Made by a program: the position numbers
Part shown: in pieces, positions 6,001 to 55,700 of the stretch
Numbering within the stretch: the first letter of the stretch is position 1
Layout: each line of letters opens with the position of its first letter
From: Leucoraja ocellata
Taxonomy: Eukaryota
Direction: 5' to 3'
DNA length: 64,000 nucleotides
Assembly: GCA_036785375.1 (NCBI GenBank)
Contig: JAWMAR010000531.1
Coordinates: forward strand, 992,001-1,056,000

Positions 6001-9000
6001 GTCCGATCCCTTCATTGCTTTCCAAATACGCTGCAATTACATCTTTAATAATTTAATAATATTAAATTCCGGATTGACAGATTCTTGATTGGTTATGGGT
6101 GACAGGGGGTACGGAAATAAGACATTTGAATGGGGTAGAGAGGTTAAGTTGGATCAGCCATTATTGAATGGTGGAGCAATCTTGATGGGCCGAATGGCCT
6201 AATTCTGCTCCTAGAACAATGAATTTATGAACATGAATTATGCGTCTGGTTCTTGAATGCCTTGGAGACCATTTTGTTGAGGCTATACAATATGATTAGA
6301 ATGGATTATGTTGACGGCACAGACTGTGGGCTTGTTGCACTTGTGGCAAAGAGAGACAAAGGATGGGATTATGTCATTAAAATAAAAACTTAATCCTGTA
6401 CAATGTCGGACTTCTTGAAGGTTTTCGGAGCTGAGGTCATCACGACATGTGGCGAGGAAGTGATCACAGCCATTTTGCTATTTTTGATGCATTATCAGAG
6501 TCTTGAGAATTTGGTATTGAGTGGGGAACTGGAATGAGATGGAATGGAGATAGATTATTTTGGTTCCAACACGATCTTTATTATAGAAAATACGAGAAAA
6601 TACTCATATAGCAGGAAATCGCACTCCTTTCTGCTCGTTAAGCCTGAATAATAAGAAGTCACATGAATTTCTCCTCTTCCAGATTCCCGTTTGCTATAGC
6701 TGGCCTGGAGAACTCGAAAGTCCTTGCACATTTCTGGGTCTAATGTGCAATCTTTCTCTGTGTCTCTTGAAGATGATTTCCGTGAGCTGGATCGAAACAT
6801 TCATTTATACAATGAATAAATCTGATCTCGAAACAAAAGTAAATTCAGTTTTAAAACTAGTTGTTCTTCTTTGTACTCAAGTAACAGTAAGCTAGTTATT
6901 AAAGCAAGGGCCGAGCTAATCTCGGATGTCTCTCAGAATGAAATTAAGATATCCCAATAGACATCTGGAAGTGCAGCGGGGTCAACACTGTTTTGTTCGT
7001 ACACCTTGACCTCTTTCTTGACTGTTCAACTTTAAACAATCCTTCGTCAATGCACTCTGCTCAATCTTTGACATGGCATTGACATGGGTAGAGGGTTGGT
7101 TTGGAAACAGGAAACAAAGAGTAGGAATAAACGGGTCCCTGCCAGAATGGCCGGCAGAGGCGAGTGGAGTGCCGCAAGGCTCAGTGTTGGGGCCGCAACT
7201 ATTTACAATATATATATTAATGATTTAGATGATGAGATTAAAAGTAACACTAGCAAATTTGCAGATGACACAAAGTTGGGTGGCATTGTGAACGGCGAAG
7301 AGGATGCTAGGAGGTTGCAGGGTGACTTGGACAGGTTGAGTAAGTGGGCAGATGCAAGGCAGATGCAGTATAATGTAAACAATTGTGAGTTTATCCATTT
7401 TAGTGGCAAGAACAAGGAGGCAAATTTCAATCGAATCTCAATGGTGTCAGATTAGGAAAAATGGAAGTGCAGCGAGACCTGAGTGTCCATGTACACCAGT
7501 CAATTAAAGAAAACATGCAGATACAGCAGGCAGTGAAGAAAGCTAATGAGGCGTTGGCCTTCATAACGAGCGGTTTTGAGTAGAGGATTAAAGAGATCCT
7601 TCTGCAGTTGTACAAGGCCCTGGTAAGACCACATCTCGTGCATTGTGTGCAGTTTCGGTCTCCTAATTTGAGGAAGGACATCCTTGCTATTGAGGCAGTG
7701 CAGCGTAGGTTTAAGAGGTTAATCCCTGGGATGGCGGGAATCTCATATGAGGAAAGATTGGAAAAATAGGGCTTGTATTCACTGGTATTTAGAAGGATGA
7801 GGGGGCATCTTATAGAAACGTATACAATTATAAAAGAACTGACAAGCTAGTCGCAGGAAAAATGTTCCTAATGATGGGGGAGCCCGCAACCAGAGGCCAC
7901 AATCTAAGAATAAAGTGGAGGCCATTTAAAATTGAGAGGAGAAACATTTTTCACCCAGACAGTTGTGTATTTGTGGAATACTCTGCCACAGAAGGCCATA
8001 AAAGCCAATTCACTGGACGAATTTAAAAGTTAGATAGAGCTCTCGGGGCTAGCGGAATCAATGGTTATGGGGAGAACGCAGGCACGGGTTACTGATTGTG
8101 GATGATCAGCCATGATCACAATGAATAGCGGTGCTGGCTTAAAGGGCCAAATGGCCTCCTTCTGCACCTATTTTCTATGTTTCTATCTAACTTGGACACA
8201 TCTAATTCATCAACGTTATTCATTTGTATGATGATTGAGTCTTTGGAAACGCAGTATTTATTGCCTATCCAAAAGTGGGAACACAGAGACACAAGGAACT
8301 GCGGATGATAAAACACGAAGTGCTGGAGTAACACGGGGTGTGCCTCAGGGTTCGGTGCTGGGCCCGTTAATGATTGTCATCTATATCAATGATTTGAATG
8401 GGATCATACTTAGTAAGATTAGCAAGTTTGCAGATGATACAAACGTGGAAGGTTTTGCAGATAGTAGAGATGGTTGTGGAAAAAGTGCAGCAGGGTCTGG
8501 ATCAATTGGCCAGGTAGGCTGAGGAATGGTTGATGGAATTTAATGCAGAGAAATGTGAAGTGTTGCATTTTGGGAATTCTAACATAGGCAGGACCTGCGC
8601 AGTCGACGGTAGATCGGGTGGTCAAAAAAGCTTTTGGCACATTGGCCTTCATCAGCCCGTGTAATGAGTATAGAGGTTGGGAGGTCTTGTTGCAGATGTA
8701 TAAGACGTTGGTGACGCCGCATTTAGAGTATTGAATTCAGTCTGGGCACCCGTCTAGGAAAGATTTCAACAAGCTGGAAATGGTACAGAGAAGATTTACG
8801 AGGATGTTGCCATGACTAGATGGTGTGAGGTATAGGGAGGGGTTGAGTAGGCCTGGACTCTATTCGTTGGAGCGCAGAAGTTGAAGGGAAACCTCATAGA
8901 GGTGTATAGGGTCGTGAGAGGAATAGATCGGGTGGATGTATAGTCCCTTGCCCATGGGAGGACCGGGTTCATGGTGACGGGCAAAGAATTAATAGGAATC

Positions 9001-52700: not shown

Positions 52701-55700
52701 CCAACCAATCCTCTATCCATGTCAATGCCATGTCAAAGATCGAGCAGAGGGCATTGATGAAGGATTGTTTAAAGTTTAACAGTCAAGGAAGTGGACATGG
52801 TTTACGAATAAAATAGCGTTGACCCCGCTGCAATTCCAGATGTCTATTGGGATATCTCAATTTCATTCTTAGAGACATCCGAGACTAGCTCGAGCCCTTG
52901 TTTTAATAACTAGCTTACTGTTTCTTGAGTACAACGAAGAACAACTAGTTTTAAAACAGAGTTTACTTTTGTTTCGAGATCAGATGTATTGATTGTATAA
53001 ATGAATGTTTCGATCCAGCTCATGGAACTCGCCTTCATGAGAGAGAGAGAGAAAGACTGCACATTAGATCATGATCCCAAAAGGTGCCAGGACTTTACAG
53101 TTCTCCAGACCAGCTATAGCAAACAGGAACCTGGAAGATGAGACATTCATGTGACTTCTTGTTATTTACCGCCGTCTATATCAGTTCAGGCTAAGGATAG
53201 CAGTTCGAATCATGAAGACAGAAGAAGGAATATAAGGGGAAGGGGAGGGAGAATGGGGATTAAATATGTGTCAGTACAGGTGGGGCACAAGCAGGGGGGA
53301 GGAAGAAANNNNNNNNNNNNNNNNNNNNNNNNNNNNNNNNNNNNNNNNNNNNNNNNNNNNNNNNNNNNNNNNNNNNNNNNNNNNNNNNNNNNNNNNNNNN
53401 NNNNNNNNNNNNNNNNNNNNNNNNNNNNNNNNNNNNNNNNNNNNNNNNNNNNNNNNNNNNNNNNNNNNNNNNNNNNNNNNNNNNNNNNNNNNNNNNNNNN
53501 NNNNNNNNNNNNNNNNNNNNNNNNNNNNNNNNNNNNNNNNNNNNNNNNNNNNNNNNNNNNNNNNNNNNNNNNNNNNNNNNNNNNNNNNNNNNNNNNNNNN
53601 NNNNNNNNNNNNNNNNNNNNNNNNNNNNNNNNNNNNNNNNNNNNNNNNNNNNNNNNNNNNNNNNNNNNNNNNNNNNNNNAGTAGATAAATAAATAGATAA
53701 ATAAAAATAAAAAATAGATGGGAAAATAGGCGAATATGTAAATAAATGAACGGGTGGGTGGATAGATACATAAATAAACAACCAGAATCTTAGCAGTTTT
53801 AATTTTCATCAACTATTATATATTGGAAACTCTGATATTGTAAACGCTGTCGATCCAAATAATGTGCTGTTTCAAGTTTAAGTGACTTTAGTGCTGCATG
53901 TTCAGCAATATTGAATATAGGCAAATAAGTGATTCGTGCTTCCTCGTTTTTTTGGAGGGGTTTTCCATGAGTCAATGTAATCAATGAACTGATCTCGGAT
54001 GCAATGTTTTTTTTCCTTTTCATTTTATTATGATGCAAAGTTCTTGAACATGAATGGTGTTGATTCCCCACGCCTTTTTAATATTGCCACTGATTTCTTC
54101 CCAATTTTTTTTTACCATGTGTCGGGATCGTGCAACAGTCTGGATCTCCAATTGGTTGTCGGGGTCTACAGTGCGGCTTTCGTGGTCGAGCGAATGCTGC
54201 GACGGTAATTGGCGATGTCATTTCGCAAGGGCGGTTTGATAGCAGCCCTTCCAACACGCTCTGCGTCATCCAGGGGAAGCACCGAGCGTAACACGCACTG
54301 GACAATCGGTCAGGATGAAAAAAAATCCAAATCTCGATTGCCCATCCCCGAACACCTGCATAAAATCATGAGTTTGACACTAAAAGCTGGAGCAACTCAG
54401 TGGGTCAAACAACGTATCTGGAGAAAGAGATAGAACTATAGAGCCAAGCAGTCAAACAGTATGGGAACAGAAGGTACACAAAAATGCTGGAGAAACTCAG
54501 CGGGTGCAGCAGCATCTATGGAGCGAAGGAGATAGGCAACGTTTCGGGCCGAAACCTTATAAGGGTTTCCGCCAGCAACGTTGCCTATCTCCTTCGCTCC
54601 ATAGATGCTGCTGCACCCGCTGAGTTTCTCCAGCATTTTTGTGTACCTTCGATTCTCCAGCATCTACAGTTCCTTCTTAAACGGTATGGAAACAGGCCCG
54701 ATGGCCCAATTTCCCCACACCGGGCTACACCAGCCCCACCTGCCCACATTTGGCCCATATCCCTACAAACATGTCCTTTCCATGTACCGGTCTAACTGTT
54801 TCTTATATGTTGGGATAGTGCGTGCCTCAACTTCCTCCTCTGGTAGCTTGTTCCATACACACAACATTATTTGCGTGAAAAAGTAACCCCTCAGATTCCG
54901 TTATATATTTTTCCGTTAACCGTAAAGCTATGTTCCCTGGTTCTCGATTCACCTACACTGGGCTTGAGATTCTGTGCATGTACTCGATCTATTCCACTCA
55001 TGATTTTATACACCTCTATCAGATCACCCCTCATCTTCCATCGCTCCAAGGAAAATAATCCCAGCCTACTCAATCTCTCCCTATAACTTAGACACCTGGT
55101 CCTGGCAATGTCCTCGTAAATGTTCTATGTACACTTTCCATATTTCCTACAGCATGGTGCCCATAACTGAATACAATACACTAAACGTGGCTTCACCAAC
55201 ATCTATATAACTGCAACATGACCTCACAGCTTTTACACTAAATACTCTGACTGATGGCCAATTTGTCAAAAGCCTTTTTGACCAGCTATCTGCGACTCCA
55301 CATTCAAGGAACCATGCACCTGCACTCCAGGATCCCTCTGCCTTCTGTACCAGAGAAGATTTGGATCAACTTTTATTCGGTAAATTCACATCTCACGTGT
55401 TGGTTTTTAAAAGGCCAGCTGGTCATAATTCAGGACTAACTTGTTCCTCAGAAGAACAAGGATGGGACTGTTCTGCGACCTTGGATGAAGAGAGATGTTG
55501 CAAAAAAAAGAAGAAAAGGACGCAAGTGAATGTTTTAGGAAGCTGAAATCGATCTGTGCCATTGAAGAAGAAACAGCAAACGGAGCGTAGGTAAACAGGG
55601 AATAAGAAGGGCCAAGAAGGCCATAGCAGGTCCTTAGCAGGTAGGATTGAAGAGAAACATGAGACATTTTCTACATATATTACAAAGAAAATAGCAAGAC

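What the first reader, a model, noticed from the sequence alone, without database searches (positions are those of the whole stretch)
6650..53160. Cluster 1 looks like a chimera: 5' half from cluster 3, 3' half from cluster 2, crossover in the C exon
Seen: about 4.7 kb of 5' flank (including two shared CR1 insertions absent from cluster 2), the promoter, leader, V frameworks and most of the J-C intron of cluster 1 match cluster 3. From the stop codon on, its 3'UTR and about 2.5 kb of flank match cluster 2, while cluster 3 diverges about 15 nt after the stop. Region 27376-53160 therefore equals an inverted cluster 1 block plus a 16,186-bp C-to-C insert. Inference: an inverted duplicate of the cluster 3-2 tandem collapsed by unequal crossover between C exons (or the reciprocal insertion occurred). 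C exons would then act as recombination hubs that shuffle promoter-VJ cassettes onto new 3' regulatory flanks.
[Added by the scan's program, not by the reader: the finding's places include an assembly gap (unread letters, written N; its length is only estimated) at 28944 to 29250. Whether the letters on both sides are continuous or in frame is not known: test that first.]
Basis: partly seen in the sequence, partly recalled or inferred. Interest (0 to 1): 0.75.

Follow-up and report, generated by a model that had tools for sequence, protein, structure and literature searches.

The report
Hybrid skate antibody light-chain gene cluster
One of three neighbouring skate antibody light-chain genes is a hybrid of the other two, joined inside the nearly identical constant-region exon, which is the ordinary outcome of recombination between repeated genes.

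Summary
The window is skate DNA: the C exon is 98% identical to a Leucoraja erinacea light chain. It holds three complete germline-joined VJ-C light-chain clusters and a fourth VJ exon.

The mosaic is real in this assembly. 5' of the C exon, cluster 1 differs from cluster 3 by 8.3% and from cluster 2 by 21%. 3' of it, cluster 1 differs from cluster 2 by 5.3-6.8% and from cluster 3 by 21-22%. Clusters 2 and 3 stay about 20-21% apart throughout.

There is one switch, between 12963 and 13147 inside the C exon (chi-square 460; 0 of 2000 permutations reach it). That interval is the longest exact match between the cluster-2 and cluster-3 units: 183 bp, next longest 51 bp.

Best model: a two-cluster block was duplicated in inverted orientation. 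One copy then lost 16,186 bp by homologous crossover between its two C exons.

Still open: an assembly collapse, a long conversion tract, and parents outside the window.

The idea is old. The same was proposed for human C-lambda genes in 1990. The "new regulatory flank" part is untested. The N gap at 28944-29250 lies in non-coding flank and does not affect the result.

The parts
6647..15703 (+). Cluster 1 block (hybrid): 5' flank, gene and 3' flank that together match the two ends of the 27375-53166 block in inverted orientation
   Evidence: Self-BLAST; three-way alignment
11338..11386 (+). Cluster 1 leader exon (ATG to GTGAGT donor, 49 nt, phase 1)
11506..11850 (+). Cluster 1 germline-joined VJ exon (V-set domain; V and J fused in frame, no RSS; GTAAGT donor follows)
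   Evidence: (V-set, 57.5 bits)
12845..13167 (+). Cluster 1 C exon including the TGA stop (C1-set domain)
   Evidence: (C1-set, 93.8 bits)
12964..13146 (+). Switch interval: last cluster-3-like site at 12963, first cluster-2-like site at 13147. It equals the 183-bp tract in which clusters 2 and 3 are identical
12820..13240 (+). Low-divergence island shared by all three clusters: C exon plus about 25 nt of intron and about 70 nt of 3'UTR. Clusters 2 and 3 differ at 0-3 sites per 60 nt here, against 7-19 per 60 nt outside
   Evidence: C-exon dS(2,3) 0.040 against VJ-exon dS(2,3) 0.218
13433..13438 (+). Cluster 1 AATAAA poly(A) signal (cluster 2 has the same; cluster 3 has AGTAAA)
7079..8190 (+). 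LINE fragment shared by clusters 1 and 3 (same 5' truncation point), absent from cluster 2
15266..16041 (-). LINE in the 3' flank of cluster 1. It is contiguous across the point (15703) where the close homology to cluster 2 ends
15704..27374 (.). Spacer of 11.7 kb between the inverted arms. It contains a GC-rich LINE with endonuclease and RT ORFs
27375..53166 (-). Two-cluster block (cluster 3 upstream of cluster 2 on the minus strand). Both of its ends are abrupt junctions
30631..33446 (-). Cluster 2 gene: leader 33446-33398, VJ 33277-32936, C 30953-30631
46817..48824 (-). Cluster 3 gene: leader 48824-48776, VJ 48657-48316, C 47139-46817
28944..29250 (.). Assembly gap in the 3' flank of cluster 2. 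Its flanks are collinear with cluster 1 14312 and 14378
53309..53679 (.). Second assembly gap, 142 bp beyond the outer end of the homology between clusters 1 and 3

Best explanation
Cluster 1 is a hybrid light-chain cluster of the Lepore type, made by homologous recombination in the germline.

Proposed history:
1. An old tandem pair of clusters had drifted apart to the 20-21% now seen between clusters 2 and 3. Their C exons stayed almost identical.
2. A block of about 26 kb holding both clusters was then duplicated in inverted orientation, 11.7 kb away. This happened about 5-10% sequence divergence ago.
3. In one copy the two C exons, which lay as direct repeats 16.2 kb apart, crossed over and deleted what was between them.

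What remained is one intact gene. It carries the promoter, leader, VJ exon and J-C intron of the upstream parent (cluster-3 type). It carries the 3'UTR, poly(A) signal and flank of the downstream parent (cluster-2 type).

Shown: the mosaic, the single switch, its position in the longest identity tract, and the junctions at both ends of the block.

Inferred: the order of events, that the exchange was a crossover, and that it happened in the genome rather than in the assembler.
For: - Single switch. Informative sites split 442:58 (cluster-3-like: cluster-2-like) on the left and 36:268 on the right. Chi-square is 459.7, and 0 of 2000 permutations reach it. The result is the same without the columns beyond the N gap. 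No significant second switch appears on the right (155 of 2000). The only secondary signal on the left is the outer edge of the block at 6683/6697.
- The parents are evenly divergent. Clusters 2 and 3 differ by 21.1% in the 5' half and 19.7-20.1% in the 3' half, so only cluster 1 changes partner.
- The halves have similar ages. LINE segments differ by 10.0% (1 vs 3, n=1059) and 9.7% (1 vs 2, n=660). The whole 5' half differs by 8.3% and the 3' half by 5.3-6.8%. Private changes are balanced: 53 on cluster 1 against 50 on cluster 3 in the 5' half, and 34 against 26 in the 3' half (summed from the table).
- The switch interval 12964-13146 is the 183-bp longest exact match between the cluster-3 and cluster-2 units. 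The next longest is 51 bp. That tract is about 2% of the 9-kb block.
- The C exon is a homogenised island. dS between C2 and C3 is 0.040, against 0.218 in the VJ exon and a K2P distance of about 0.30 in the intron.
- The block ends are junctions. Cluster 3 sequence 53167-53308 matches nothing, while cluster 1 6257-6646 stays collinear with the 5' flank of cluster 2. Cluster 2's LINE stops at 27375 against an oppositely oriented LINE piece, while cluster 1's copy continues to 16041.
- The geometry fits. The 5' partner is the distal cluster and the 3' partner is the proximal one, as an inverted copy requires.
- All exons of cluster 1 are intact and in frame.
Against: - The two halves are not strictly the same age. 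The 5' half differs by 8.3% +/- 0.4 and the 3' half by 5.3% +/- 0.6 (to 14651) or 6.8% +/- 0.6 (to 15703). Segment values range from 2.9% to 11.6%. A later, separate exchange of the 3' half is therefore not excluded.
- Cluster 1's C exon has 7 changes not shared with C2 or C3, and all are non-synonymous.
- At 5 of the 6 codons affected, the little-skate protein P0006 has cluster 1's residue. At two of them (T23, K89) the Amblyraja and Rhinoraja proteins do too. So either C2 and C3 changed together, or C1 was overwritten from a third cluster. One crossover alone does not explain the exon.
- P0006 is closer to cluster 1 than cluster 3 is, in V as well (92% against 85%). Relatives outside the window could be the true parents.
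- The window comes from a scaffold with N gaps of estimated size. Cluster 1 lies in an uninterrupted stretch (1-28943), but no reads were available to confirm that the two halves are really joined.
- The deleted 16 kb leaves no trace, so the collapse is inferred, not seen.
Confidence: 0.6

Rival explanations
1. Assembly collapse. The genome really holds a full inverted copy of the two-cluster block, and the assembler jumped from the first C exon to the second, dropping 16 kb. Cluster 1 would then be a computational hybrid of two real clusters.
For: - The switch lies in a stretch of about 440 bp that is 97-99% identical among clusters. That is the kind of repeat where assemblers mis-join.
- The scaffold has two N gaps of estimated length (307 and 371). 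One sits in the part of the flank where clusters 1 and 2 are 96-98% alike.
- Near-equal ages of the two halves are also what this rival predicts.
Against: - Cluster 1 lies in an uninterrupted stretch, 1-28943, with no N.
- Its C exon differs from both others at 7 positions spread across the exon. Most of these are shared with an independently annotated little-skate protein that also has a cluster-1-like V region. A V(1-type)-C(1-type) gene therefore exists elsewhere.
- None of this tests the join to the 3' flank.
Confidence: 0.12
2. Long-tract gene conversion or a two-step exchange. Cluster 1 began as an inverted copy of one parent only, and one of its halves was later overwritten from the other neighbour, with the tract starting in the C exon.
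For: - The 3' half is somewhat younger than the 5' half (5.3-6.8% against 8.3%).
- Conversion clearly acts on these C exons: dS between C2 and C3 is 0.040, against 0.218 in the VJ exon.
- Inverted repeats on one chromosome convert readily (general knowledge, recalled).
Against: - There is only one switch. The replaced part runs 2.5 kb (or 6.2 kb) to the very end of the homology and carries LINE insertions with it.
- At both outer ends, homology stops at structural junctions on the cluster 2/3 side. It does not fade back into the deep-paralog identity that a recipient's own flank would show.
- Beyond 15703 there is no cluster-3-like flank, and upstream of 6647 no close cluster-2-like flank. Cluster 1 matches cluster 2 there at only 68-82%.
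Confidence: 0.15
3. History within a larger family. The true parents of cluster 1 are other members of the large skate light-chain family outside this window (at least 89 type I clusters are reported in Raja). The likeness to clusters 3 and 2 then reflects subfamily membership rather than direct descent.
For: - P0006 is 98% identical to C1 and 92% to V1, closer than C2 or C3 (93%) and V3 (85%). It represents 11 sequences at 90% identity or more.
- P0006 is itself mosaic. Its CDR2 is like V1 and its CDR3 is identical to V3.
- The abstract of PMC2192082 reports at least 89 type I clusters.
Against: - The match to clusters 3 and 2 is not limited to exons. It covers 4.7 kb and 2.5 kb of flank, with shared LINE insertions.
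- The two partners are the two immediate neighbours, in the order and orientation that a local inverted duplication predicts.
- P0006 might be the allele or orthologue of cluster 1 in another assembly.
Confidence: 0.13

Closest known systems
[quoted passage not shown]
   Same: - Tandem J-C or VJ-C units whose constant exons stay highly similar.
- Those exons serve as the sites of misaligned homologous exchange that changes copy number.
   Different: - In this window the units are complete germline-joined VJ-C clusters, each with its own promoter, in a skate.
- The product seen is the deletion-type hybrid, kept next to an intact inverted copy of its parents.
Lepore-type fusion genes, such as haemoglobin delta-beta Lepore and hybrid opsin or IGHG genes (recalled, not from a call)
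   Same: - The 5' part comes from the upstream paralog and the 3' part from the downstream one.
- There is a single junction in a tract of identity, and the interval between the parents is lost.
   Different: - The parents are still present because the block had been duplicated first.
- The protein is almost unchanged because the exchange lies in the homogenised exon.
Germline-joined light-chain clusters of skates (abstract of PMC2192082; passages of review PMC5192425)
   Same: - V and J are fused in the germline with no RSS.
- There are many clusters, and replacement changes are concentrated in the CDRs. Here dN is 0.081 against dS 0.053 between V1 and V3.
   Different: - What I saw of those papers describes the clusters singly.
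- I found no description of linkage, inverted blocks or hybrid clusters.
Somatic recombination between Ig heavy-chain clusters in shark B cells (recalled; the search did not retrieve the paper)
   Same: Exchange between separate clusters that puts one V region in front of another cluster's downstream part.
   Different: That process is somatic, occurs in the heavy chain and is reported in intron DNA. This event is germline, affects a light chain and lies in the C exon.

Membership tests
Cartilaginous-fish cluster-type germline-joined Ig light-chain gene | One V-set domain and one C1-set domain encoded by separate exons within about 2 kb, with a split leader | tested here: met
   Pfam V-set 57-76 bits and C1-set 92-94 bits for all three clusters. 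Exon coordinates and splice sites.
Cartilaginous-fish cluster-type germline-joined Ig light-chain gene | V and J fused in frame in germline DNA, with no recombination signal sequence between them | tested here: met
   A single open exon runs ...YYCAK....FGKGTRLGIG and is followed by a GTAAGT donor in clusters 1-3.
Cartilaginous-fish cluster-type germline-joined Ig light-chain gene | Close sequence relatives are skate light chains | tested here: met
   The C exon is 98% identical to a Leucoraja erinacea protein, 92% to an Amblyraja radiata protein and 86% to a Rhinoraja longicauda protein. The 'near'-length search found none, as expected for a single exon.
Cartilaginous-fish cluster-type germline-joined Ig light-chain gene | Assignment to an isotype (type I / sigma-cart or type II / lambda) | tested here: inconclusive
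   The only label is the automatic NCBI name 'lambda-1 light chain-like'. Both types are reported as joined in skates. No typed reference sequences were compared.
Hybrid gene from non-allelic homologous recombination (Lepore type) | 5' part nearest one paralog and 3' part nearest another, with a single switch | tested here: met
   One breakpoint; 0 of 2000 permutations reach the observed chi-square.
Hybrid gene from non-allelic homologous recombination (Lepore type) | The switch lies in a tract of high identity between the parents | tested here: met
   The switch interval equals the 183-bp longest exact match between the two parental units.
Hybrid gene from non-allelic homologous recombination (Lepore type) | The parents are direct repeats, with the 5' donor upstream of the 3' donor | tested here: met
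   Cluster 3 lies upstream of cluster 2 on the minus strand, 16,186 bp from C exon to C exon.
Hybrid gene from non-allelic homologous recombination (Lepore type) | The hybrid replaces the two parents on the recombinant chromosome | tested here: inconclusive
   The parents persist, so a prior inverted block duplication has to be assumed. Similar ages of the halves and junctions at both block ends are consistent with it but do not prove it.
Hybrid gene from non-allelic homologous recombination (Lepore type) | Physical continuity of the hybrid in genomic DNA | not testable with these tools
   No reads and no second assembly of a vertebrate genome were available.
Interlocus gene-conversion patch | A converted tract bounded on both sides by the recipient's own sequence (two switches) | tested here: not met
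   There is only one switch. The close homology runs to structural junctions at 53166 and 27375.
   Pfam RVT_1 matches in several copies (for example 17833-18246, 61 bits; 5657-5986, 48 bits). The copies inside the finding score below the cut-off (7072-7452, 20 bits; 8235-8519, 26.5 bits).
   No repeat library or named LINE references were compared.

The most novel reading that the evidence does not exclude
The C-exon identity island may be actively kept uniform across the whole skate light-chain family and may be the preferred germline exchange point. Promoter-VJ modules, C exons and 3' flanks would then reassort as three separate units. On this reading cluster 1 is a three-parent mosaic: a cluster-3-type 5' half, a C exon from a P0006-type cluster, and a cluster-2-type 3' flank. 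It would be one visible case of a family-wide germline counterpart of cluster switching.
Probability: 0.15. Interest if true: 0.55.

Novelty: new member of a known kind. Interest (0 to 1): 0.3.

Why it matters
The finding gives a concrete, datable example of how the multi-cluster antibody loci of cartilaginous fish gain, lose and reshuffle genes. The steps are block duplication in inverted orientation, homogenisation of the constant exon, and homologous deletion between constant exons.

It also carries a practical warning. Trees built from V exons, C exons or flanks of these clusters will disagree with one another. Cluster counts taken from assemblies can be off by one wherever C exons are near-identical.

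It does not change how these genes are thought to work. The hybrid encodes an ordinary light chain.

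Tried and rejected
- Protein search with the C exon at 'near' length found nothing. The 'longer' search was needed.
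The 11 members of the P0006 group stayed unseen, so the test of the same pattern in other clusters could not be made.
Other species and other clusters therefore stayed unchecked.
- The full text of Anderson 1995 (PMC2192082) is not held; only the abstract and references are. Supplements of papers were not consulted.
- Four literature searches found no description of hybrid or inverted-block light-chain clusters in cartilaginous fish.
- A simple inversion by crossover between the inverted C exons of clusters 1 and 2 was considered and rejected. It swaps the 3' halves reciprocally but cannot create two close copies of each half.
- An allelic haplotype falsely assembled as a duplicate was rejected. 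The copies differ by 5-10% and by several lineage-specific insertions of 0.3-1 kb.
- A conserved 3' island (c1 14547-14666, about 80% identical to cluster 3) was considered as a candidate regulatory element. It is a dispersed repeat with at least 10 copies in the window.
- The head-to-head LINE pieces at 27375/27376 could be a twin-primed LINE insertion (a recalled mechanism) rather than a duplication junction. Cluster 1's copy lacks that structure, so I read it as a junction, but this is not settled.
- Rfam found nothing in the window.
- A joined (spliced) gene model was neither built nor searched. Exons were searched and aligned one at a time, and only exon lengths were added up to check the frame.

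Full report
**What the window is**

The 64-kb window has two N runs, at 28944-29250 and 53309-53679. Stop-to-stop ORFs and Pfam show three complete immunoglobulin light-chain clusters and the VJ exon of a fourth. Exon coordinates are:

| Cluster | Strand | Leader | VJ exon | C exon |
|---|---|---|---|---|
| 1 | + | 11338-11386 | 11506-11850 | 12845-13167 |
| 2 | - | 33446-33398 | 33277-32936 | 30953-30631 |
| 3 | - | 48824-48776 | 48657-48316 | 47139-46817 |
| 4 | + | not mapped | ORF 62768-63160; exon ends 63155 | beyond the window |

- In every cluster V and J form one open exon with no recombination signal between them (...YYCAK...FGKGTRLGIG, then a GTAAGT donor). These are germline-joined clusters.
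- The C exon of cluster 1 is 98% identical to a Leucoraja erinacea protein, 92% to an Amblyraja radiata protein and 86% to a Rhinoraja longicauda protein. The DNA is therefore from a skate, not a human.
- Germline-joined light-chain clusters are the known state in skates. The abstract of PMC2192082 reports at least 89 type I clusters, all joined. Passages of the review PMC5192425 say the same for type I in skates and for lambda in all species studied.
- Which isotype this is was not determined.
- Exons were searched one at a time.

**The assembly gap**

- Cluster 1 matches cluster 2's 3' flank right up to both edges of the N run: 13658-14312 with 29919-29251, and 14378-14651 with 28943-28670. 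Order and strand are the same on both sides.
- The two sides are therefore neighbouring pieces of one flank. Cluster 1 has 65 nt where 307 N are written, so the gap length is uncertain.
- The gap is non-coding, about 1.4 kb past the stop codon.
- Leaving out every column beyond it changes nothing. I did not fill it.

In a three-way alignment the proportions of differing sites are:

| Region (cluster 1 coordinates) | 1 vs 3 | 1 vs 2 | 2 vs 3 |
|---|---|---|---|
| 5' half, 6700-12840 | 8.3% (n=4379) | 21.3% | 21.1% |
| 3' half, 13168-14651 | 21.0% | 5.3% (n=1211) | 19.7% |
| 3' half, 13168-15703 | 21.6% | 6.8% (n=1871) | 20.1% |

- Clusters 2 and 3 are evenly far apart on both sides, so only cluster 1 changes partner.
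- Of 804 informative sites in 3825 reliable columns, the split is 442:58 before the switch and 36:268 after it. Maximum chi-square is 459.7, and 0 of 2000 permutations reach it (permutation maximum 20.8).
- The switch lies between 12963 and 13147, inside the C exon.
- No second switch is significant on the 3' side (155 of 2000). On the 5' side the only signal is the outer edge of the block (6683/6697).
- A LINE fragment shared by clusters 1 and 3 has the same truncation point in both and is missing from cluster 2. A second RT-like fragment behaves the same way. That they are CR1 was not tested.
- One detail is wrong. Cluster 3 remains homologous after the stop codon. It shares 22 nt, has a 17-nt deletion, and then runs at about 83% identity through the poly(A) signal.

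**Why the switch is where it is**

- The longest exact match between the whole cluster-3 unit and the whole cluster-2 unit is 183 bp (47020-46838 with 30834-30652). The next longest is 51 bp.
- That 183-bp tract is exactly the switch interval in cluster 1, 12964-13146.
- Around it lies an island of about 440 bp (about 12820-13240). There clusters 2 and 3 differ at 0-3 sites per 60 nt, against 7-19 outside. The edges are sharp and reach into intron and 3'UTR.
- Synonymous divergence between C2 and C3 is 0.040. In the VJ exon it is 0.218, and the flanking intron has a K2P distance of about 0.30.
- The constant exon has therefore been homogenised, most simply by gene conversion. It offered the only long identity tract for homologous exchange.
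- The few differences between C2 and C3 inside the island follow the mosaic. Sites 12888, 12954 and 12963 are shared with cluster 3. Sites 13147 and 13163 are shared with cluster 2. The island therefore already existed when cluster 1 formed.

**The edges of the blocks**

- The close homology between clusters 1 and 3 stops sharply at 6647/53166.
- Cluster 3's next 142 bp, up to the second N gap, match nothing in the window. Cluster 1's upstream sequence 6257-6646 stays collinear with the 5' flank of cluster 2 at deep-paralog identity of 68-82%.
- At the inner end, cluster 1's LINE is contiguous across 15703 (LINE reference positions 1429-2198). Cluster 2's copy stops at 27375 (reference position 1770) against an oppositely oriented LINE piece.
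- Both ends of the 27375-53166 block therefore look like rearrangement junctions, and cluster 1's side looks undisturbed.
- This fits a block duplication in inverted orientation. It argues against conversion tracts, which should fade back into the recipient's own, distantly homologous flank.
- It also suggests that the cluster-1 side is the original site.

**Best model and its weak points**

The proposed steps are an old tandem pair, an inverted duplication of the pair, and then a crossover between the two C exons in one copy that deleted 16.2 kb. This explains the single switch, its position, the geometry and the junctions with two events.

The ages of the two halves agree in the LINE parts (10.0% and 9.7%) and are similar overall. 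The 3' half is somewhat younger, which leaves room for a separate later exchange.

The C exon of cluster 1 needs more than one crossover:
- It has 7 changes not shared with C2 or C3, and all are non-synonymous.
- P0006 shares five of the six altered residues.
- The Amblyraja and Rhinoraja proteins share T23 and K89. C2 and C3 therefore appear to share derived states, or C1 was overwritten from a P0006-type cluster.
- P0006 is also closer to V1 (92%) than V3 is (85%). It carries V1's CDR2 and V3's CDR3.

Finally, nothing here can exclude that an assembler skipped from one C exon to the next. Cluster 1 does lie in an N-free stretch.

**Comparison with what is known**

- The mechanism is classical. 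[quoted passage not shown]
- Lepore-type fusion genes (recalled) are the textbook product.
- What is new is only the setting: a hybrid germline-joined cluster in a skate, sitting next to an intact inverted copy of its parents.
- I found no such description in four searches. I saw only the abstract of the main skate paper and no supplements.
- The claim that C exons move VJ cassettes onto new regulatory flanks has no support yet. No regulatory element was shown. The only functional difference seen between the flanks is AATAAA in clusters 1 and 2 against AGTAAA in cluster 3.

**Verdict**

- The finding is a new member of a known kind.
- Interest is about 0.3.

Noticed in passing
62768-63155 (+): A fourth germline-joined VJ exon of a more distant V family (51% identical to V1). 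Its J motif reads F-A-K-G instead of the usual F-G-x-G. Its C exon would lie beyond the end of the window.
   Followed up: partly
46655-46650 (-): Cluster 3 has AGTAAA where clusters 1 and 2 have the canonical AATAAA poly(A) signal.
   Followed up: partly
11506-11850 vs 48657-48316: Between the VJ exons of clusters 1 and 3, replacement changes outnumber silent ones (19.8 against 4.2; dN 0.081, dS 0.053). They cluster in the CDRs, and cluster 1 has a 3-nt insertion in CDR2. The abstract of the 1995 skate paper reports the same kind of pattern.
   Followed up: partly
12845-13167 (+): All 7 nucleotide changes private to cluster 1's C exon are non-synonymous. Most of the resulting residues recur in the little-skate protein P0006, so they mark a C-region subtype rather than decay.
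   Followed up: partly
about 20500-26400, ORFs 22743-24500 and 24664-25239 (+): A large GC-rich LINE with endonuclease and reverse-transcriptase ORFs fills much of the spacer between the inverted arms.
   Followed up: no
27375/27376; 4276-4612 vs 27376-27042: Two LINE pieces meet head to head exactly at the inner end of the block. The outer piece matches a LINE piece upstream of cluster 1 at 93.5%, the highest identity between non-duplicated LINE copies in the window.
   Followed up: partly
2790-3735: A purine-rich tandem tract with units of 21-79 bp of GGA/GAGG type, in a 2-kb stretch with GC 0.60 and GC skew 0.66, about 7 kb upstream of cluster 1.
   Followed up: no
14548-14772, 28671-28773, 44953-45114, 54466-54686, 61398-61579, 1859-2072, 15-189 and others: A dispersed repeat of about 200 bp with at least 10 copies in the window. 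One copy sits in the 3' flank of each of the three clusters.
   Followed up: no
9009-9997; 35955-38182; about 32242-32842; about 46113-46521; about 51400-51680: Insertions specific to one cluster: cluster 1 (with a zf-RVT ORF at 8910-9194), cluster 2 (a 2.2-kb LINE, plus an insertion of about 600 bp in the J-C intron), and cluster 3 (two). They could serve as markers for ordering events.
   Followed up: partly
11917-12063 (+): A short stretch of cluster 1's J-C intron aligns with neither neighbour, while clusters 2 and 3 align with each other there. Cluster 1 has about 130 bp where cluster 3 has about 370 bp.
   Followed up: partly
57357-58091 (-): An ORF of 245 aa matches Pfam ALKBH8_N (67 bits). 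It lies among repeat-derived sequence, and its meaning is unclear.
   Followed up: no
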